A stretch of DNA of 64,000 nucleotides from an uncultured virus (IMG/VR IMGVR_UViG_3300050821_002105) (IMGVR_UViG_3300050821_002105), one strand, 5' to 3'. Shown: positions 1,426 through 57,333, counted from the first letter of the stretch. The notes: a model not told the origin generated them from the sequence alone. Numbers and translations are program-made.

Positions 1426-1872
1426 TCATTGGTTGGCCTCTGGATCACAATGCGAGCAGTAAACCCTACCCTTACCTGTCACCTGGAGATCACAATCGGG
1501 TTCATCAGGACATTTCATCCAATGATTCCCAGCGTCATCATGGATCATTAACTCGTCCACCTGTGTTTGTGTAAGAGCTTCAGTCGTCTTTGGTTCTACG
1601 CACGTCCAGACCGTGCCATTGTCCTCGATTTTTTGCGCCTCGTAAGGTCGCGCCACGCGTTCATTAAATTCATCAAGAGCGCCGATCATCACACCCTGTA
1701 TGTGGTCAATCGTTGCATAGCTCACTCCATGTGTCTCCATGTAGGCATTCAACAAACGACAGACAACATAATTGAGTTTAGCTGGTAAGAATATACCCGC
1801 CACTAGATCATTGGTTAGAATACGCAATCCCGGTTCTAGCTCTGGTCGTTGTTCTGACGATATGTAGGGCAT
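1426..1872 (-). CDS. Conserved phage protein (MPYI...LNY...PYE.KI..NG family)
   Basis: Motif pattern common in phage nucleotide-metabolism regions; start moved to MPYISS. Confidence 0.6.
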   Translation of the reverse strand: MPYISSEQRPELEPGLRILTNDLVAGIFLPAKLNYVVCRLLNAYMETHGVSYATIDHIQGVMIGALDEFNERVARPYEAQKIEDNGTVWTCVEPKTTEALTQTQVDELMIHDDAGNHWMKCPDEPDCDLQVTGKGRVYCSHCDPEANQ

Positions 1873-42857: not shown

Positions 42858-43448
42858 TCAGATATTTGTACCAGTTAGGCTGAACGACTCCAGATAGTCG
42901 GCCATTCCCCGCAATCGTTTGGAGTCATCGCTGAAGTTGCCCGCGCCAACGTTACAGGTAACGCACAAGATTCCTCGCACGCAGTTACCGCAACTATCGT
43001 CCCCTTGACAGCAGGCATGATCGTGGTCTATGTGACAACTCCCGAGATTTTCGGGGTTAATAGCCTCATCGCAACCAGGATTGGCGCAGTGATAATCTTG
43101 CGAATCGGCCATTTCTAGACACTGCTCCCATGAGATATTATACTTACGCTTAACGTGGTTCTTGCGCGAACAAAGCTTACAGTGCGAATTTTTGTTTGCC
43201 CTAGCCTGTCCCCGTCGTGGCTTCGTATCTCCAAAGTCGTCTTTGTATTTGAACTGTTTACAGCCAGGACACCAGATATTATCTGAACCGTCATATCTTA
43301 CGGCCTTAACGAAGTACGGATCACCGTAGTTTCGTACTCGGGTGTAGTGCATTCCACACATTCCGAGAGCAAAACGGGGACTATTGCCATAGGTGCTATC
43401 GCAACCGTCTACTTTGCAGACGGTATCGGGTGTGTATCGGGTTCTCAT
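42858..43448 (-). CDS. Endonuclease VII-family HNH nuclease
   Basis: HIDHDH..C...CG.CVRGILC..CN..G. Confidence 0.85.
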   Translation of the reverse strand: MRTRYTPDTVCKVDGCDSTYGNSPRFALGMCGMHYTRVRNYGDPYFVKAVRYDGSDNIWCPGCKQFKYKDDFGDTKPRRGQARANKNSHCKLCSRKNHVKRKYNISWEQCLEMADSQDYHCANPGCDEAINPENLGSCHIDHDHACCQGDDSCGNCVRGILCVTCNVGAGNFSDDSKRLRGMADYLESFSLTGTNI

Positions 43449-44002
43449 TGCTGAACACCTTTGAACAAATATTTCGTCCAGTTGTCCTGATTGGCGTGGA
43501 CGAGAACCCTAGCTAGAGCACCCGTAGGACGCCACTGTTGCATCTCGGGCGACCACACGCGACCGTTGATTTCCCAGCCCATCTCAGCGGGAGTCCGGTT
43601 ACCCTTCTTGTGGTTACAGGCGCGACACGCAGCCACTACGTTCTCCCAGGTATTCGGACCACCTTGGGCCTTGGGAATAACGTGATCTACAGTTGTAGCC
43701 CGTCCCTGACATAGACCTGGACGCTGGTAAGCACAGATGTGCCGATCTCGCGCACAGACGTTACGAGGGGTAAGAGGAAGAGAGCGAGGACGCGTACCGT
43801 GGGCGTGTTTGGGTTTATGATAACGAGTCTGCTGGATCACAGAGGGGATCTCAACTTCCATAGAAGGAGATCTACACATCTTGCCGGTGCCCTCTAGCAT
43901 CACGGCTTTACCCTGCATTATGTCCCAGATCGCATCTTCGGCGCTACATACTTCGACTGGCTGTCCTGACACAGATAGAACTAAACATCTACCAAGGCTC
44001 AC
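43445..44002 (-). CDS. HNH endonuclease (McrA-like)
   Basis: RD...CAY...TVDHVIPK..GG..TWENVVAAC..CN..K. Confidence 0.88.
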   Translation of the reverse strand: MSLGRCLVLSVSGQPVEVCSAEDAIWDIMQGKAVMLEGTGKMCRSPSMEVEIPSVIQQTRYHKPKHAHGTRPRSLPLTPRNVCARDRHICAYQRPGLCQGRATTVDHVIPKAQGGPNTWENVVAACRACNHKKGNRTPAEMGWEINGRVWSPEMQQWRPTGALARVLVHANQDNWTKYLFKGVQQ

Positions 44003-45251: not shown

Positions 45252-45599
45252 TTATTCTTCGACCCACTTACCATTGACCCTAACCTCTATTTTGAGGTTT
45301 TTGGTATCTAGTTCACGGGCTACTTCTTGTTCTATTGACTCTTCCCTTGCCGCATCTGCTTCTTTATCGTGAAGCCATGCAAGGAATCTAAATGATTTAG
45401 CCATCCTCCTTAGTGCTTCTCGGCGGTTATGAAGTTGGTCACGATGGGTTCGTGATTCTCCTACGGCACCGGACTCACGATGGATGACTCTAGCCCCAGA
45501 AGATTTTTTATTCTGCGCCTGTCCACCTTTGCCACCGGCACGAAAAAACTGCCATTCTAGGTCCGAACCTCCAATGGACATCATTTTTTCTCTTGGCAT
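45252..45599 (-). CDS. RF-1 domain peptidyl-tRNA hydrolase (ArfB-like)
   Basis: FFRAGGKGGQAQNK...R.Q..NR..A. Confidence 0.88.
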   Translation of the reverse strand: MPREKMMSIGGSDLEWQFFRAGGKGGQAQNKKSSGARVIHRESGAVGESRTHRDQLHNRREALRRMAKSFRFLAWLHDKEADAAREESIEQEVARELDTKNLKIEVRVNGKWVEE

Positions 45600-49581: not shown

Positions 49582-49667
49582 AGGAAAGCCCCGGTCCCGC
49601 CCCGGATCCCCCTAAGGGAACGTGTAGGTTTCGAATCTACCCTGGCCGCTTCACCAGTTGACTTTCC
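49582..49667 (-). tRNA. tRNA-Ser(CGA), 8/4 fold
   Basis: GGAAAGTC/GGCTTTCC; T stem CCGG/CCGG; long V arm. Confidence 0.75.
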
Positions 49668-50000
49668 GCAGGTTTACCAAACCCAATGTACCGGATGCCA
49701 TATGGTCCAGAATTGCAAGATGAATGCAATCACAAACAACATCATTCCGGCGTATCCGATATCATTTTCCTTGTGCCACTTGTAGCCAAAGACAGCAACA
49801 GCAGCGATGGAGACGAATAGAGCAACAACTTGCATGACGCGTCCTTTCCTACAGTTTCCCCCGCGAATGTCCGAATACGATGATGGCTAGCACGACGATG
49901 GCGGCTATCCAAACGAACGGAGTTGTAATGAAGCCAAAGATGGCGAAGAGAATCAGTAGTAGGATTAAGAAAATGAGCATGATTGCTCCTTTGTTGCAAC

Positions 50001-50089
50001 TGGAGGATAGCGGGTGACTTGAACACCACCCGCCGAAAACGGGCGCATTGCTTAGCAGGCAAGCCTTACCCCTTGTAAGTTCACTATCC
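50001..50089 (-). tRNA. tRNA-Ser(GCT), 8/4 fold
   Basis: GGATAGTG/CGCTATCC; GGTG-TTCAAGT-CACC; CCA. Confidence 0.8.
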
Positions 50090-50091
50090 AT

Positions 50092-50197
50092 AAACCCCGA
50101 GTTGTGCCACCATTACACTAAGTCCACCGCTTCTGATCGGTCCCGATCAATTGTCTAGACCGCGGTGGGCCGGAATCGAACCGGTCCTACTCGGTTT
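50092..50197 (-). ncRNA. Circularly permuted tRNA mimic 1 (YrlA-like topology)
   Basis: 5' stem, T arm, closed acceptor stem, D arm, 3' stem. Confidence 0.7.
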
Positions 50198-50198
50198 G

Positions 50199-50272
50199 CC
50201 TCGCATATAGGATTCGAACCTACGCTGACTCGGTTTAGGAAACCGACGCTCTATCCACTGAGCTAATGCGAG
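50199..50272 (-). tRNA. tRNA-Arg(CCT)
   Basis: Canonical cloverleaf. Confidence 0.9.
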
Positions 50273-50279
50273 AAGAAAC

Positions 50280-50434
50280 TGGGTGGCCGGTGGGGTGTCA
50301 ATACCGTGGGTCGTCATGCAGACTCGAAAATCCGACAATCTAGAGTATCCCCTAGCGGACACGGCTTTCCCATCCTCCGTTTACGGCGCCAGCGCCCCAT
50401 GACCGGGCCTAGCTAACCTCTGTCCCTACCACCC
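50280..50434 (-). ncRNA. Unidentified structured RNA, about 155 nt
   Basis: Closing helix GGGTGGT/GCCACCC; fills the gap between two tRNAs. Confidence 0.5.
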
Positions 50435-50438
50435 AAAC

Positions 50439-50512
50439 TGGAGCCGCCATTGGGAATCGGACCCAAACTACTTCCATACCAAGGAAGAACACTACCATTA
50501 TGCGATGGCGAC
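50439..50512 (-). tRNA. tRNA-Thr(GGT)
   Basis: Cloverleaf, CCA. Confidence 0.85.
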
Positions 50513-50569
50513 AAAATCAACGGGCCGCTGCCTGCTGCGCTTGTGGCGTCAGCGACGGCACCTACCCGA

Positions 50570-50642
50570 TGGCGCTGTGACTGGGATTCGGACCCAGGAG
50601 GCAGAGATTCGGACTCTCTACTGATAATCCACTTCTCACAGC
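50570..50642 (-). tRNA. tRNA-Arg(CCG), degenerate D arm
   Basis: AGAGA-GTCCGAA-TCTCT; CCA. Confidence 0.65.
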
Positions 50643-50643
50643 A

Positions 50644-50718
50644 TGGCGTTCCCTGCCGGGGATGATCCGACCCTAAGGATTTCGTAGATCCTTGTGCGAT
50701 CCAATACACTAAGGGAAC
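50644..50718 (-). tRNA. tRNA-Arg(ACG)
   Basis: Cloverleaf, CCA. Confidence 0.8.
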
Positions 50719-50917: not shown

Positions 50918-51409
50918 CTACCCGCGTATGATTTTGCCTTTATTACGACCAGCAAAAGTCGGCGTTTGAGAATGACAGTTAGGGCACAAAAATCGTAGAT
51001 TCTCAGGTTTGTTATTCCAAGAGTTTCCATCAATATGATCTATGTGCAGAACGATTGACTCACCTAGCCAATGCGATCTTATCGGACAACCCTTGGTCGC
51101 ACATTCATAGGTCCGACCTATGCTCAGTAGATCCCGAGTTAGGATATCGGAGCCTATGCGGGGCGCTCCTTCTTCTGATACCAATCGTTCGGCAGTTGAA
51201 CGCCTGGATCTGTAAGGCTGTTTTGGTTTTGCTTTAACCCAGAAATGAGAAACATCTATTTCGTATTGTGCGATTTTTTGAGTAATGCGGGTGTTGTTGA
51301 CTCCGTTAGACGGAATACCCAGCGCACGCAAAACATCAGCGTATGAATAACATGATGATACTACTCTACGGATGGCCGTTTCGCTATGATCGTATTTCCT
51401 GATAACCAT
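50918..51409 (-). CDS. HNH homing endonuclease
   Basis: LHIDHIDGNSWNN.PENLRFLCPNCHSQT.T. Confidence 0.9.
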   Translation of the reverse strand: MVIRKYDHSETAIRRVVSSCYSYADVLRALGIPSNGVNNTRITQKIAQYEIDVSHFWVKAKPKQPYRSRRSTAERLVSEEGAPRIGSDILTRDLLSIGRTYECATKGCPIRSHWLGESIVLHIDHIDGNSWNNKPENLRFLCPNCHSQTPTFAGRNKGKIIRG

Positions 51410-51498
51410 TTTCTGCTCCTGTCTCAACCCAGGAAAGGGTGGGCATTGGGTGGTTGAGCACCCGCCGCCCGTGATTTTGAGCATCTCAACATGCTGAG

Positions 51499-51864
51499 TG
51501 GAGCTAGCGGGTACTGCCCCCGCGTCTTTCGGGCCTCTACTACATTGTCACAATCATTTCCGTCTTTCCGGTTTGTCATGTTGCAGGGGTGACGTTGCCG
51601 CCACTGTTCCACCACTGACTTTTATTGTCGGAAGTCAGAAACCGGACTTTAGGGATCTTGGATTGCAAGGCGTCCCTAGCCCCGGCTGCCGCTTTTAAGC
51701 GGATACGAGAACCTTAGATCCTACCTGAGACAGATAGAAAGCGGCTTCGTCAGCGATACCGAACGTAGTGTTGTCGGTTGTTTCATGTGCGCTTATTAAC
51801 GTGACCTCGCATCACGGATTGTCAATATAGGGTCAGTCATCGAAATCGAATCTTGTTTAGCCCC
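51499..51864 (-). ncRNA. ssrA: tmRNA
   Basis: 5' GGGGCTAAACAAGATTCGA; 3' GACGCGGGGGCAGTACCCGCTAGCTCCA with G3:U70; 366 nt; tag ORF 51775-51695. Confidence 0.92.
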
Positions 51865-51933
51865 ATGAAAAACGAAGCACATGCGCCTTTGGGTAACCGC
51901 TAGCAGTAGCCTCCGGGTGTCCACTTCGTTACG

Positions 51934-52005
51934 TCGGATACCTGGGTGCTGCCCCCAGTATTTCGTGATCCCAAATCACGCGGATTGCTGTCTTCCTCGT
52001 ACCCG
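51934..52005 (-). tRNA. tRNA-Pro(TGG)
   Basis: C1-G72; CGTGA-TTTGGGA-TCACG; T-loop GGCAGCA. Confidence 0.75.
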
Positions 52006-52006
52006 G

Positions 52007-52080
52007 TGGTCCCTCATCTCGGTGCTGCCCCGAGGATTCGACTTTAAGAGAGTCGCTGTTTCCTGTTAACGTAATGAGGG
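52007..52080 (-). tRNA. tRNA-Lys(CTT)
   Basis: CGACT-CTCTTAA-AGTCG; T-loop GGCAGCA; CCA. Confidence 0.75.
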
Positions 52081-52081
52081 T

Positions 52082-52361: not shown

Positions 52362-52448
52362 TTAAAAGCGCCAGCGTGTTGCCGTTACACTATCCCAGCC
52401 CACATGGGTAGGGAGCGAGATTCGAACTCGCAATACTGGCTAGATTTA
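52362..52448 (-). ncRNA. Circularly permuted tRNA mimic 2 (YrlA-like topology)
   Basis: GCCAGT, GCGAG-TTCGAAT-CTCGC, closed acceptor stem, TAGTGTAACGGCAACAC, GCTGGC. Confidence 0.72.
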
Positions 52449-52450
52449 GG

Positions 52451-52687
52451 TGGGTGGCGGGATTGGCTACCCGCAACGTAGGACTCAGAGTTGCCTATGA
52501 TTGGTTACCTACGAACTACCTAGTTCTGCTTGTCGATTTTCAACCCTTGCAAGGGGTTTTACTACCCTATCCCTCAGGCGCTAGCCCACCAGTCAAGCGT
52601 AGTTTTCCTCCGACCTAAGCGTGTATTATCCCCCAGCCTGAGCTATAAGGATTCTTCTACCACACCCTATGGGTTGCCGTCGCTACC
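52451..52687 (-). ncRNA. Unidentified structured RNA, about 237 nt, with own promoter
   Basis: Closing helix GGGTAGCG/CGCCACCC; TTGACA...TAAGGT just upstream. Confidence 0.55.
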
Positions 52688-54756: not shown

Positions 54757-57333
54757 TTGGCTACAGCTAAAAAGAAGCGCGCCCCCGATCATTTCAGCAA
54801 TGTCCTTACTGAGACGATCAACCCTAGCGTTATAGATGCCTTCACTCCCTTAGGATACAACCCCACACCTAAGCAGAAAATCTTTCACGATCTTTCTCAA
54901 CAGAAGGTTCACGCTATCCTTTACGGTGGCGCCCGAGCCGGTGGCAAGAGTTGCGCCATGACGATGGAGGCGATCCATTGTGCTGTAAACTTTCCCGGCA
55001 TGAAGATCCTCTGCCTCCGACGCACTTACCCAGAGCTAGAAGAGTCTTTCCTAGCTGAGCTAAAGAAGCGTCAGTACGCTGCCCCGCTGGGTGGCAAGTG
55101 GAACCAGACAGACAAGAAGCTTAGGTTTGCCAACGGCTCTGAGATAAACTTCTCCTACGCCGAGACAGAGATCGACATCTCCCGCATCCTTGGTGGTGAA
55201 TACCAACTCATCGAGATTGATGAGGCTTCTAGAACGCTCCCTATCATCATAAAGCACTCCGAAGAGAACCTGCGATCTGGAAGCCCAGCCATTCCGGTGA
55301 TGGGACTACGGCTTGCTACAAATCCCGGAGGCACCGGGCACTGTCTACCATATGGTGACGTTCTAACCCCCAATGGTTGGCGTCGAATTGAAGACATTAC
55401 TACAGGTGATCCAGTATACACCGTGCGACCTGATGGCGTGATGGTCGAAACCACCGTATCTAGGACGTTCGAATACGACTGGGATGATGACATAATTGAA
55501 GTCAACGCTCGCGGGCTTTCTATGGCGATGACTCCAAATCATAGAGTGGCGAAGGTTGGCGGCACAAAGACCAATCAAAAGACAAAATTCTCGTTGGTCC
55601 CTTTTGAAGAACTCCCCGGTCAGGCTACCATCTTGCGTTCTGTAGAGTGGCAAGGCAAGCCGTTGCCATCGTTCACTCCAGATCCAATAGAGACAAGAAA
55701 GCGCAAGTTGGAACAACCAGCAACGCTTTCTGGTGATCTATTTGCAGAACTCTTGGGCTGGTACCTATCAGAAGGTTCGGTAGTACGCTCTGGTCCAAAG
55801 GCTTTCGACATAGCTCAATCGAAACCAGACGGCAGAGACGCGATACAGAAGCTTCTAGATAGGTGTGGGCTTCAAGGGACTTGGGGTGAAAAGTCAGTAA
55901 GGATTTACGCTGCTGATTGGTGGTGGTATTTCTCGCAGTTTGGTTATTCCTATGAGAAATTTATTCCTGACTGGGTAAAGGCTGGGAGTCGAGAAGATCT
56001 TCAGATTCTCCTGAACGCGCTCATGGCTGGTGATGGGCACTGGCAGTCTAGAACTGGTGGTGCATACTATACGATCTCTAGACAATTAGCCGACGATGTT
56101 GCAGAGATAGCCGTCAAACTCGGCTATCTAGTGTTAGTAACTGAGTTTCAGAGGCCAGATAGAGTTGGTCCTAGTTTTACTGTAAACATTAAGAAGGTAT
56201 TGTCTGGGGGGAGTGAACTCCTTACTGGGAATCATCTTTACGACGTAAAGACAATGACCCAGCGTTCTTCTAACATTAGAAGAAACCATTATACTGGTAA
56301 GGTCTACTGTCTTGGCATAGATGATACCGAGACGTTTATCGTTAGACAAAACGGATCAGTCTGGGTAAGCGGCAACAGTTATCTCAAAGAACGTTTCATC
56401 AAGCCAACAGAGCGCGGTCAGCATCTCGCTATCGACGCCGTTGGACGCCGAGTGGCGTTTATCCCTGCGCTCTACACAGACAACCCGTACATCAATCAAG
56501 AACAGTACAAGCAACAGCTTGACGCGATTGATGATCCTGCTCGTCGTGCTGCTATGCGTGACGGCGACTGGGACGCCCAGGTTGGTCAGTTCTTCGAACA
56601 GTGGAGTCATTTCAAGCACGTTATCGACAGACATTGGGATCTCCCGATGGAGTGGCAACGTTACTGTGGTATTGACTACGGTGTTCACGCTCCATATGCC
56701 GCCGTCTGGGCGGCTGTAGATAACGATGGCAGAATGTGGGTTTACCGTGAGCAGTATGCTCGCGGTGTAGATGCGCGTTCACAAGCCATGAATATTCTCG
56801 AAGCCGAAGAAGCTGCTGGCGAGTACGAAGTGATACGAGTTGCCGACCCTTCCATGTGGGGCAATCGTGGCACGCCAATGAGTATTGCTGATGTGTATGG
56901 CTTAGAGGGTTGTGGCATCATGCAAGCTGACAACAACCGTCCTAACGGTTGGGCGCGGTGCCACCACTTCTTAAATGATGGACCAGCTTGCGAATATCAC
57001 ACCGAGATGGGCTGGGAAGAGTGCCCAATGATGCACGTCTTCGGTGATGAGTGTCCTAGCTTTGTGGAAACAGTTCCAGAGCTACCGCGCCATCCGCTCA
57101 ACCCAGACGACGCCGAGACTAAGAACGTAGAGGACCACATCCCAGACGCCTGGCGTTACCTCTGCATGACCGCTGGAACCAGCGGTGGACCTGTTATTTA
57201 CGACAATGACGCAAGGGAGGCTACGTCAGCGGACGTGCGCCAACTCCACGAAGAAGAAGGCGCAGCCTACATGCCAGAAAGCGCTAGGCAAATAGGCCCC
57301 TTCGTGGTTGGCGACTTGCGAATGAACCTCTGA
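54757..57333 (+). CDS. terL: Terminase large subunit (intein-containing)
   Basis: YGGARAGGKS, IDEA, ATNPGG, DNPY, GIDYG, ADPSMW, EDH.PDAWRY. Confidence 0.95.
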   Translation: MATAKKKRAPDHFSNVLTETINPSVIDAFTPLGYNPTPKQKIFHDLSQQKVHAILYGGARAGGKSCAMTMEAIHCAVNFPGMKILCLRRTYPELEESFLAELKKRQYAAPLGGKWNQTDKKLRFANGSEINFSYAETEIDISRILGGEYQLIEIDEASRTLPIIIKHSEENLRSGSPAIPVMGLRLATNPGGTGHCLPYGDVLTPNGWRRIEDITTGDPVYTVRPDGVMVETTVSRTFEYDWDDDIIEVNARGLSMAMTPNHRVAKVGGTKTNQKTKFSLVPFEELPGQATILRSVEWQGKPLPSFTPDPIETRKRKLEQPATLSGDLFAELLGWYLSEGSVVRSGPKAFDIAQSKPDGRDAIQKLLDRCGLQGTWGEKSVRIYAADWWWYFSQFGYSYEKFIPDWVKAGSREDLQILLNALMAGDGHWQSRTGGAYYTISRQLADDVAEIAVKLGYLVLVTEFQRPDRVGPSFTVNIKKVLSGGSELLTGNHLYDVKTMTQRSSNIRRNHYTGKVYCLGIDDTETFIVRQNGSVWVSGNSYLKERFIKPTERGQHLAIDAVGRRVAFIPALYTDNPYINQEQYKQQLDAIDDPARRAAMRDGDWDAQVGQFFEQWSHFKHVIDRHWDLPMEWQRYCGIDYGVHAPYAAVWAAVDNDGRMWVYREQYARGVDARSQAMNILEAEEAAGEYEVIRVADPSMWGNRGTPMSIADVYGLEGCGIMQADNNRPNGWARCHHFLNDGPACEYHTEMGWEECPMMHVFGDECPSFVETVPELPRHPLNPDDAETKNVEDHIPDAWRYLCMTAGTSGGPVIYDNDAREATSADVRQLHEEEGAAYMPESARQIGPFVVGDLRMNL
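55342..56376 (+). mobile_element. Intein with LAGLIDADG endonuclease (345 aa)
   Basis: H|CLPYGDVLT...MTPNH...LLGWYLSEGS...ALMAGDG...VYCL...VSGN|S. Confidence 0.92.

What the first reader, a model, noticed from the sequence alone, without database searches (positions are those of the whole stretch)
50092..50197. Second permuted tRNA mimic with an expanded acceptor-end insert
Seen: AAACCGAGT, T arm (CCGG TTCGATT CCGG), CCACCGC [insert containing the TGATCGG/CCGATCA hairpin] GCGGTGG, D arm (TAGTGTAATGGTGGCAC), ACTCGGGGTTT. It has the same topology as the 52.4-kb RNA but a different sequence, so two members occur in one genome. Its first 9 nt equal the anticodon 3' strand of the adjacent tRNA-Arg(CCT). 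Inference: a family of permuted tRNA mimics, or permuted precursors/spare halves for repair by ligation.
Basis: partly seen in the sequence, partly recalled or inferred. Interest (0 to 1): 0.78.

Follow-up and report, generated by a model that had tools for sequence, protein, structure and literature searches.

The report
Permuted tRNA mimic in phage array
A soil phage carries, in the exact gap between two of its tRNA genes, a small RNA gene built from the parts of a tRNA in rotated order; this is the design of the tRNA-like half of bacterial Y RNAs, but here it lacks the part that binds their Ro protein partner.

Summary
On the minus strand at 50090-50197 lie, in order: a terminal stem, a T arm, a closed 7-bp acceptor-like stem with a 31-nt insert, UA, and a D arm. 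This is a circularly permuted cloverleaf. It fills the whole interval between tRNA-Arg(CCU) and a tRNA-Ser(GCU) that default tools missed. A second copy (e2, 52367-52443) has the same design. The architecture equals the core of YrlA (Rfam RF02553), the tRNA-like domain of bacterial and phage Y RNAs, which the literature already calls circularly permuted tRNAs. A genuine phage YrlA (Bxz1) also has an expanded acceptor insert. e1 and e2 differ in three ways: no Ro-binding handle, no Ro/TROVE gene in 64 kb, and a position as slots in a tRNA array. Similar handle-less units occur in other phage tRNA arrays, including two apparently complete genomes without Ro. One has four units, two of which lack any acceptor stem. 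True tandem-tRNA junctions never showed both perfect stems (0 of 62). Weak points: no diverged orthologue of e1 exists in the collections searched, model-fitted covariation failed its control, and expression evidence is only suggestive. Verdict: a new variant of a known kind. The ligation or spare-halves idea is not supported.

The parts
50090..50197 (-). e1: whole permuted tRNA-like element, the exact interval between two tRNA genes
50189..50194 (-). closing stem, 5' strand CCGAGU (AAA at 50195-50197 can extend it)
   Evidence: MFE; pairs with 50097-50102
50185..50188 (-). 4-nt linker AGGA, the variable-loop equivalent
50170..50184 (-). T arm CCGG-UUCGAUU-CCGG
50162..50168 (-). acceptor-like stem, 3'-strand equivalent CCACCGC
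   Evidence: 7/7 Watson-Crick with 50124-50130
50131..50161 (-). 31-nt insert closing the acceptor-like stem; internal hairpin at 50134-50149
   Evidence: analogous insert in Bxz1 YrlA
50124..50130 (-). acceptor-like stem, 5'-strand equivalent GCGGUGG
50104..50123 (-). ACU bulge, U8-A9 equivalent, and D arm GUGU-AAUGGUG-GCAC
50092..50102 (-). closing stem, 3' strand ACUCGG, then GG bulge and UUU
50198..50272 (-). tRNA-Arg(CCU), immediately 5' of e1; no encoded CCA; shares AAACCGAGU with the start of e1
50001..50089 (-). tRNA-Ser(GCU), class II, ends U-CCA, immediately 3' of e1; missed by default ARAGORN and Rfam
   Evidence: MFE cloverleaf, z -2.1; ARAGORN at 90% threshold; not reported by Rfam
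52367..52443 (-). e2: second permuted tRNA-like element (closing GCCAG/CUGGC, T arm GCGAG-UUCGAAU-CUCGC, short closed acceptor-like hairpin with 2x2 internal loop, UA, D arm GUGU-AACGGCA-ACAC)

Best explanation
e1 is a gene for a circularly permuted tRNA mimic of the YrlA type. A terminal stem stands where the anticodon stem would be. Then come a 4-nt linker, a canonical T arm, an acceptor-like stem closed into a hairpin (7 bp plus a 31-nt insert), U8-A9, and a canonical D arm. Unlike described YrlA RNAs it has no outer stem with a Ro/Rsr-binding handle, and it sits as one slot in a phage tRNA array. Shown: the sequence and fold; the exact placement between tRNA-Arg(CCU) and tRNA-Ser(GCU); a second copy in the same array; similar handle-less units in other phage tRNA arrays, including Ro-less genomes; and identity of architecture with the RF02553 core. 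Inferred: it is co-transcribed with the array. It is released as an RNA of about 108 nt by the enzymes that mature its neighbours (RNase P at the 5' end of tRNA-Ser, 3'-end processing of tRNA-Arg). It folds into the tRNA L-shape through the D-loop/T-loop elbow. It acts in trans by occupying or recruiting a protein that recognises the tRNA elbow and upper half, as a decoy or tether, like the effector-binding domain of YrlA but independent of Ro. Because its acceptor-like stem is 7 bp, it may also be cut there by RNase P, as M. smegmatis YrlA is. The partner and the benefit to the phage are unknown.
For: Fold and parts. Slot: ARAGORN tRNA-Arg 50198-50272 and, at 90% threshold, tRNA-Ser 50001-50089, with nothing called inside e1 at 80% (cloverleaf). 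No minus-strand promoter- or terminator-like site between e1 and its neighbours. Same architecture as RF02553 positions 24-84: closing stem, 4-nt linker, T arm, abutting AS hairpin, UA, D arm, closing stem. Papers: YrlA has T-AS-D order and a closed acceptor stem, 'circularly permuted tRNAs', and a 7-bp AS makes it an RNase P substrate (passages read). The Bxz1 YrlA upstream of gp220 (TROVE + vWA_Ro60) has an AS stem with an expanded insert and hairpin. Not a junction: 0 of 62 true junctions have both perfect stems, and e1 does. Neither half is a near-copy of any of 26 window tRNAs. Family: model R1, built without e1 or e2, ranks them top two in the window. Units with different but paired closing stems occur in other phage arrays, often 0-11 nt from tRNAs. 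Ro independence: G013 (146.9 kb, terminal repeats, estimated 100% complete) has 4 units and G015 (527 kb, estimated 100%) has 2, with no TROVE in either. Two G013 units keep the T arm, D arm and closing stem but have no acceptor stem, which points to the elbow as the conserved core. Contigs from RNA libraries of two runs bridge e1 with 0 differences (X2 49630-50557, X3 50001-50460).
Against: No diverged orthologue of e1 or e2 was found: viral and metagenome scans returned only identical copies, so conservation of e1 itself is untested. MFE z-score is only -1.47. Model-fitted covariation is not discriminating: 87.9% paired in 13 units against 84.1% in 33 score-selected tRNA junctions run the same way. 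Pattern-bearing junctions reach 30-48 bits with R1, as high as e1. Complementarity of the two halves could be inherited from a tandem duplicate of one tRNA without selection. e1 has a 3-nt bulge (ACU) between acceptor strand and U8, a 4-bp T stem with an A.C position, and no obvious 15:48 pair. RF02553 gives no hit at E<=10. RNA-library contigs may contain DNA, and contigs cannot show ends. The window is only part of a genome, so a Ro gene elsewhere cannot be excluded.
Confidence: 0.55

Rival explanations
1. Evolutionary debris: e1 is the inner part (3' half, spacer, 5' half) of a tandem duplicate of one tRNA gene whose outer halves were lost. The pairing of its halves is inherited, not selected, and the RNA has no function.
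For: Tandem duplication followed by truncation is the simplest route to a circular permutation. The 9-nt identity with the adjacent tRNA-Arg(CCU) hints at recombination among tRNA genes. HNH and endonuclease VII genes lie in the array. No orthologue shows conservation. Covariation statistics failed their control. The MFE z-score is weak. e1 has irregularities: an ACU bulge and a 4-bp T stem.
Against: Both outer halves would have to be removed exactly at the anticodon loop, leaving 0-2 nt to the neighbouring tRNAs. This would have to happen twice in one genome (e1, e2) and again in unrelated phages. The acceptor strands are joined by tetraloop-sized loops in several members, with no discriminator, CCA or spacer. 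Acceptor-less units in a head-to-tail array in G013 cannot arise that way. All 13 stem pairs of e1 and the canonical T and D loops are intact. Neither half resembles any resident tRNA beyond universal motifs. The same design is functional in YrlA.
Confidence: 0.25
2. A canonical Ro-dependent Y RNA: e1 is the tRNA-like module of a YrlA that works with a Ro/Rsr protein encoded outside the 64-kb window or by the host.
For: All 5 of 5 contigs with the V-arm form of this RNA (same D arm) encode TROVE near the RNA. In Ro-positive phages the modules lie at the edge of tRNA arrays. The window is a partial genome. One simple-form unit (L026) lies directly upstream of a DUF2828+DUF7788 protein auto-named 'RNA-binding protein'.
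Against: There is no GNCGAAN0-1G and no phage-type CGGWUAYC handle next to e1 or e2 on their strand. The flanking tRNAs leave no room for an outer handle stem. No TROVE among all window ORFs of 300 aa or more, and no significant TROVE hit by tblastn (a weak test). Two apparently complete phage genomes with such units lack TROVE, DUF2828 and the L026 protein.
Confidence: 0.12
3. A permuted or split tRNA gene: the two halves are matured and joined (circle intermediate or ligation), or held together after RNase P cleavage, to give a working or spare tRNA.
For: 3' half upstream of 5' half, as in permuted tRNA genes of a red alga (recalled, not read). A perfect 7-bp acceptor stem. M. smegmatis YrlA is cut by RNase P and receives CCA.
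Against: Joining the ends gives an 11-13-nt loop with no anticodon-loop signature. No CCA follows the acceptor 3' strand. There is a 3-nt bulge before U8. e2 has a mismatched acceptor, and two G013 units have none. No ligase, RtcB or CCA-adding enzyme in the window. ARAGORN, which also detects permuted tmRNA, calls nothing here. No joined form appeared among RNA-library contigs (table 5).
Confidence: 0.04

Closest known systems
YrlA (Y RNA-like A; Rfam RF02553), tRNA-like effector domain of bacterial and mycobacteriophage Y RNAs
   Same: Order of parts: stem in place of the anticodon stem, short linker, T arm, closed acceptor-like hairpin abutting the T stem, UA, D arm. Canonical T and D loop motifs. 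Variable-length acceptor hairpin, expanded with an internal hairpin in Bxz1. Described as circularly permuted tRNAs.
   Different: No outer stem with a GNCGAA or CGGUUAYC Ro-binding handle. No Ro/TROVE gene within 4 kb, or anywhere in the 64-kb window. D-arm sequence GUGUAAUGGUGGCAC instead of the near-invariant GCUCAnnnGGUAGAGC. No RF02553 hit at E<=10. Located as a slot inside a tRNA array.
M. smegmatis YrlA (RNase P-cleaved, CCA-tailed form)
   Same: 7-bp acceptor-like stem, the feature that paper names as the determinant of RNase P cleavage.
   Different: Cleavage of e1 is only predicted. e1 has a 31-nt insert and a 3-nt bulge, and no Rsr association.
Circularly permuted tRNA genes of Cyanidioschyzon merolae (recalled; seen only as titles of reviews in the listing)
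   Same: 3' half encoded upstream of 5' half.
   Different: Those yield functional tRNAs with anticodon loops through a circular intermediate. e1 cannot form a 7-nt anticodon loop and has no CCA or discriminator context.
Two-piece (permuted) tmRNA (Rfam RF04321)
   Same: T arm and acceptor 3' strand encoded upstream of the acceptor 5' strand.
   Different: No mRNA-like tag domain. No RF04321 hit on e1. The phage has its own one-piece tmRNA at 51496-51864.
tRNA-like processing signals (plant mitochondrial t-elements; start of abstract seen in the listing) and the small stable RNAs of the T4 tRNA cluster (recalled)
   Same: Non-tRNA RNAs embedded among tRNA genes or transcripts and cut out by tRNA-processing enzymes.
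   Different: No sequence or model relation. R1 finds nothing in T4 or T5.

Membership tests
YrlA (RF02553 / Chen et al. 2014) | tRNA-like domain with T arm, closed acceptor-like stem-loop and D arm in that order, closed by a stem in place of the anticodon stem | tested here: met
   MFE fold; same layout as RF02553 positions 24-84; paper passages
YrlA (RF02553 / Chen et al. 2014) | Match to the Rfam covariance model at its gathering score (69 bits) | tested here: not met
   No hit even at E<=10. Caveat: the positive control Bxz1 reaches only 32.5 bits and Ro-linked metagenomic loci 31-47 bits, so the model is insensitive to phage members
YrlA (RF02553 / Chen et al. 2014) | GNCGAAN0-1G Rsr-binding motif near the 5' end (phage form CGGUUAYC in Bxz1) | tested here: not met
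   No such motif on the minus strand next to e1 or e2; the 5' end of e1 abuts tRNA-Arg
YrlA (RF02553 / Chen et al. 2014) | Encoded within about 4 kb of a Ro60/TROVE gene on the same strand | tested here: not met
   No TROVE among 51 ORFs, including all of 300 aa or more, in the 64-kb window; tblastn with 9 TROVE-locus proteins shows nothing significant for TROVE. The rest of the genome is not available
YrlA (RF02553 / Chen et al. 2014) | Near-invariant T and D stem-loop sequences | tested here: inconclusive
   T loop UUCGAUU fits. D arm GUGU-AAUGGUG-GCAC differs from the consensus GCUC-AnnnGGUA-GAGC, but Ro-linked phage RNAs with the e1-type D arm exist
YrlA (RF02553 / Chen et al. 2014) | Binding by Rsr; modification by TruB/DusA | not testable with these tools
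   Needs experiments
Canonical tRNA | Cloverleaf in standard order with anticodon loop, detectable by ARAGORN or Rfam RF00005 | tested here: not met
   No call inside 50090-50197 at default or at 80% thresholds
Permuted tRNA gene (C. merolae type) | 3' half upstream of 5' half | tested here: met
Permuted tRNA gene (C. merolae type) | Joining the transcript ends restores a 7-nt anticodon loop | tested here: not met
   The ends ...ACUCGGGGUUU(AU) and (C)AAACCGAGU... would give an 11-13-nt loop (sequence)
Permuted tRNA gene (C. merolae type) | Joining machinery available (ligase) | tested here: not met
   No RNA ligase or RtcB in Pfam scan of 51 ORFs or PHROGs scan of 73 ORFs of the window; host enzymes unknown
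Two-piece tmRNA (RF04321) | Model match and tag-encoding domain | tested here: not met
   No RF04321 or tmRNA hit on e1; ARAGORN finds no tmRNA there

The most novel reading that the evidence does not exclude
Phages carry a Ro-independent family of circularly permuted tRNA-elbow mimics. They are embedded as slots or tandem arrays in the phages' tRNA clusters and cut out by the host's tRNA-processing enzymes. They act as decoys or recruiters for a protein that recognises the tRNA elbow, for example a tRNA-targeting defence nuclease, a modification enzyme or RNase P. YrlA Y RNAs would then be the same module fused to a Ro handle, and phage tRNA arrays the place where such modules arise.
Probability: 0.3. 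Interest if true: 0.8.

Novelty: new variant of a known kind. Interest (0 to 1): 0.58.

Why it matters
The tRNA-like domain of YrlA is thought to bind an unknown factor (abstract). That question has been open since 2014. If handle-less copies of the module work on their own in phages that have no Ro, the module has a Ro-independent partner. Small, multi-copy phage versions, including acceptor-less ones that reduce it to the elbow, would then be simple baits to find that partner. It would also mean that automated tRNA annotation of phage arrays overlooks a class of non-decoding tRNA-shaped RNAs. If instead these are debris, they still record how circularly permuted tRNA-like genes arise in fast-evolving tRNA arrays.

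Tried and rejected
1. Close relatives of the phage or of e1 and e2:
- The phage collection by blastn found nothing.
- Portal-based locus search returned only the identical 23-kb record.
- e1- and e2-specific patterns in viral contigs returned self only.
- In metagenome contigs, 8 loci came back: 2 identical copies of e1 and 6 that were tandem tRNAs or other arrangements.
- Portal tblastn against cultured phages gave 11 records at 21-29% identity, so no usable relative.

2. Model-fitted covariation as proof of structure was rejected, because the junction control scored almost as high.

3. The R1 score as a discriminator was rejected: pattern-bearing tandem junctions reach 30-48 bits.

4. R1 on T4, T5 and Bxz1 found nothing. 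The model is narrow, so this says little.

5. RF02553 on G001, G013 and G015 gave none, none and two weak hits. It also rings sub-threshold in 9 of 14 control genomes, so it is uninformative.

6. The family pattern in 185,579 prokaryotic genomes gave 3 hits, all tandem tRNAs (tRNA-SeC/tRNA-Arg calls) in Flavobacteriia.

7. DUF2828 as a hidden Ro-like partner: absent from G001, G013, G015, G008 and G009 (no positive control). The L026 protein was found only in its own contig and distantly in G010, 22 kb from that contig's element. It has no PDB relative by sequence.

8. The gap 51865-52081, which contains AGCGGUUACCC, folded without a convincing Y-RNA shape.

9. Laid contigs showed no variants, no joints at e1 and no defined ends. 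A part without cover is not interpreted.

10. The window's own assembly is not held, and earlier-findings look-up was empty.

11. Literature searches for Ro-independent permuted tRNA-like modules in phage tRNA arrays found none. This covers only the open library searched.

Full report
WHAT IS THERE. The window is part of an uncultured tailed phage from soil, 52% G+C. It encodes RecA, DnaB, an integrase, a terminase with a LAGLIDADG insert, a portal and a major head protein. Between 44.0 and 53.0 kb the minus strand carries 25 ARAGORN tRNAs, one more seen only by Rfam, and a tmRNA.

The finding lies inside this array. Read on the minus strand from 50197 to 50092, the sequence is: AAA-CCGAGU, AGGA, CCGG-UUCGAUU-CCGG, C, CCACCGC, a 31-nt insert with the hairpin UGAUCG-GGAC-CGAUCA, GCGGUGG, ACU, UA, GUGU-AAUGGUG-GCAC, A, ACUCGG-GG-UUU. 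The minimum-energy fold is a four-way junction: terminal stem, T arm, closed acceptor-like stem, D arm. The element at 52367-52443 (e2) has the same order of parts with other stem sequences.

IS IT MORE THAN CHANCE, OR MORE THAN A tRNA JUNCTION? Folding energy alone is not convincing (z -1.47, 24 of 200 shuffles as good; e2 z -2.72). The real danger is the one Chen et al. named: the T arm of one tRNA followed by the D arm of the next imitates this order.

- Of 114 distinct hits, 76 had both halves inside ARAGORN tRNAs and 16 had neither.
- I then scored all hits by one ungapped, fixed-register rule. 90 hits could be scored. Hits too near a locus end, or without a recognisable D-stem 3' strand, were dropped before the count, and their number was not printed.
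- Among 62 true junctions the 'closing' stem was 5/5 in 3, the 'acceptor' stem 7/7 in 2, and both in none.
- Among 15 hits with neither half in a tRNA the figures were 6, 9 and 3. The three were L026, L051 and e1.

Further points against a junction:
- ARAGORN calls nothing inside e1 even at 80% of its thresholds.
- Neither half of e1 or e2 resembles any of the 26 resident tRNAs beyond the universal loop motifs (best local scores 13-15 over 33-39 nt).

A SLOT IN THE ARRAY. The 3' flank of e1, which ORF listing shows as the start of an 80-codon frame, folds as a complete class-II cloverleaf with anticodon GCU and an encoded U-CCA end (z -2.1). ARAGORN calls it tRNA-Ser(GCU), 50001-50089, once its threshold is lowered to 90%. 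Rfam does not report it. e1 therefore fills the whole 108-nt interval between tRNA-Arg(CCU) (50198-50272) and this tRNA. No promoter- or terminator-like site on the minus strand separates them.

It follows by inference that the enzymes maturing the neighbours would set e1 free: RNase P at the 5' end of tRNA-Ser, and 3'-end processing of tRNA-Arg, which lacks an encoded CCA.

WHAT IT IS LIKE. The order T arm, closed acceptor-like stem-loop, D arm, with a stem in place of the anticodon arm, is that of YrlA. YrlA is the Y RNA found next to Ro60/Rsr genes in more than 250 bacteria and 22 phages (sections read). [quoted passage not shown] It also states that the 7-bp stem of M. smegmatis YrlA makes it an RNase P substrate (passages read).

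Rfam's YrlA model shows the same layout in its core, positions 24-84. Positions 1-23 and 85-114 form the outer stem with the GNCGAA Rsr-binding motif.

As a tool-derived comparator I located the Bxz1 YrlA: RF02553 32.5 bits at 129979-130055, upstream of gp220, which is TROVE + vWA_Ro60. Its acceptor-like stem CAGGUG/CGCCUG carries an expanded insert with an internal hairpin, as in e1. So the 'expanded acceptor-end insert' is not new either.

WHERE IT DIFFERS.
- e1 and e2 give no RF02553 hit at E<=10. This is weak evidence, since Bxz1 itself and Ro-linked metagenomic loci stay far below the gathering score.
- More telling, neither GNCGAAN0-1G nor the phage handle CGGWUAYC lies next to e1 or e2 on their strand, and the flanking tRNAs leave e1 no room for an outer stem.
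- No TROVE protein was found among 51 ORFs, including every ORF of 300 aa or more. tblastn with proteins from nine loci also found none, but its control showed phage TROVE proteins barely detect each other, so that test is weak.
- The window is a partial genome, so Ro elsewhere cannot be excluded.

THE FAMILY. Among the non-junction hits two architectures appear.

One has an extra stem-loop before the T arm, with a loop often CUACGGA (fitting the published YUAY), and a conserved ACGGWUACUUC-like motif upstream. All 5 of 5 contigs tested with this form encode TROVE near the RNA.

The other is the simple form of e1 and e2.
- TROVE was found in 0 of 5 contigs (all incomplete, 11-75%).
- In one search it was above cut-off in 0 of 5 (one weak 18.3-bit match in G016). 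Two of those five are estimated complete.
- G013 (146.9 kb, terminal repeats) has four units, three of them head to tail right after tRNA-Pro.
- G015 (527 kb) has two units abutting tRNA-Cys and tRNA-Pro.
- Two G013 units keep the closing stem, linker, T arm and D arm, but have only about 5 nt where the acceptor stem should be.
- Closing stems differ in nearly every unit yet pair: ACCGA/UCGGU, ACUGA/UCAGU, ACCGG/CCGGU, GCCAG/CUGGC, CGAGU/ACUCG, UGGAG/CUCUA, GAGAG/CUCUC, GACAA/UUGUC.
- Several units lie 0-11 nt from tRNAs. L136 sits between two tRNAs, L110 lies 1 nt after tRNA-Leu, and both G015 units abut tRNAs.

A model built from five such units, without e1 or e2, ranks e2 (41.8 bits) and e1 (40.0 bits) first in the window, against 27.6 bits for the best junction there.

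CAVEATS ON THAT EVIDENCE.
- The seeds were found with a pattern taken from e1 and e2, so the sequence part of the score is circular.
- In pattern-selected loci, junctions reach 30-48 bits.
- The formal pair count on 13 units gave 87.9% paired, closing stem 90.8%, and 0 of 500 shuffles as high. It is matched closely by 33 junction hits run the same way: 84.1% overall, closing stem 76.1%. I therefore do not count it as support.
- The units may have arisen independently from different tRNAs, in which case differing paired stems are inherited rather than compensatory.
- No diverged orthologue of e1 or e2 exists in the collections searched.

EXPRESSION. Three soil metatranscriptome runs hold the locus. 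Contigs with no differences bridge e1 and both neighbours in two of them (X2 49630-50557; X3 50001-50460). RNA libraries can contain DNA, and contigs show no ends, so this is compatible with transcription and no more. The region with e2 and the manA-like RNA lies in contigs of much higher word depth (X2 109.9, X3 54.4, against about 3-8 for neighbours). The tool warns that such figures cannot rank genes.

HOW IT MOST LIKELY WORKS. Shown: the design, the slot, and the family resemblance. Inferred:
- co-transcription with the array;
- excision by tRNA-processing enzymes;
- an L-shaped fold held by the D-loop/T-loop elbow (U8, A14, G18-G19, U54-U55-C56 and A58 equivalents are all present);
- action by binding a protein that recognises the upper half of tRNA.

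The acceptor-less units suggest the elbow is what matters. Its 7-bp stem makes e1 a candidate for RNase P cleavage inside the insert. What the partner is, and whether the RNA is a decoy, a tether or merely a processing spacer, cannot be decided here.

The spare-halves or ligation idea fails on the anticodon-loop geometry, on e2 and the acceptor-less units, and on the absence of a ligase.

VERDICT. e1 is a real, well-formed permuted tRNA mimic. It is a handle-less, array-embedded variant of the known YrlA design rather than a new kind of RNA. Function and selection remain unproven.

Noticed in passing
window 52447-52687 (-): A manA RNA (RF01745) match below gathering score but significant (41.8 vs 55.2 bits, E 1.5e-9), with conserved blocks and pseudoknot strands aligned. 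It lies inside the tRNA array directly 5' of e2, not in a 5' UTR as manA RNAs usually do, and in a soil phage rather than a marine or cyanophage setting.
   Followed up: partly
window 50001-50089 (-): A class-II tRNA-Ser(GCU) with encoded CCA, missed by default ARAGORN and by Rfam and called by ARAGORN at 90% threshold. The overlapping 80-codon ORF (49849-50091) is probably spurious; a short membrane protein with an AAGGAG ribosome-binding site seems to start near 49982.
   Followed up: yes
L156 1376-1558 and 1889-1965 (contig G013): Four permuted tRNA-like units after tRNA-Pro in an apparently complete 147-kb phage without Ro. Three are head to tail, and two of them lack any acceptor stem (T arm and D arm joined by about 5 nt).
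   Followed up: partly
L152 25-1479 (-) next to the unit at 1501-1574 (-) (contig G007): The best-scoring simple-form unit lies directly upstream, on the same strand, of a 484-aa DUF2828+DUF7788 protein. Its nearest viral Atlas clusters are auto-named 'RNA-binding protein' and some carry a vWA domain. This parallels Ro (TROVE+vWA) and may be an undescribed Ro-like partner.
   Followed up: partly
L034 918-979 and 1310-1422; L055 1152-1212; L100 413-522; L137 102-169; Bxz1 L174 2262-2744: Ro-encoding phage loci carry several tandem Y-RNA-like modules, often at the edge of a tRNA array. Bxz1 shows three RNAs, each with a CGGUUAYC motif and an outer stem ending CAUGUCUG.
   Followed up: partly
L034, L101 (V-arm loops); window 50644-50718 tRNA-Arg(ACG): The V-arm loop of Ro-linked phage RNAs (CUACGGA) differs by one base from the anticodon loop of tRNA-Arg(ACG) (CUACGAA). 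The 5' edge of simple-form units (RAACYGR) matches Arg-type anticodon arms. This suggests the family descends from an Arg tRNA.
   Followed up: no
L181, L182, L185 (metagenome contigs), around 401-470: After tRNA-Pro(CGG) comes a tRNA-like gene in which acceptor strand, D arm, a short linker and T arm follow each other with no anticodon arm.
   Followed up: no
L148 and L041: tRNA-like units with normal D and T arms but a 5-nt loop in the anticodon position; ARAGORN labels one 'tRNA-???'.
   Followed up: no
window 45252-45599 (-) and 51496-51864 (-): A small RF-1-domain protein (ArfB / peptidyl-tRNA-hydrolase-like) is encoded inside the tRNA array of a phage that also encodes its own tmRNA (48.2 bits, just above gathering score).
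   Followed up: no
window 54757-57333 (+): The large terminase is 858 aa with a LAGLIDADG domain in the middle, probably an intein. HNH and endonuclease VII genes are scattered through the tRNA array (42858-44002, 50918-51484).
   Followed up: no
window 51865-52081, 50273-50438, 50513-50643 (-): Further noncoding gaps of 130-220 nt in the array. The first contains AGCGGUUACCC, which resembles the phage Ro-handle motif, but folds without a clear Y-RNA shape (z -1.85).
   Followed up: partly
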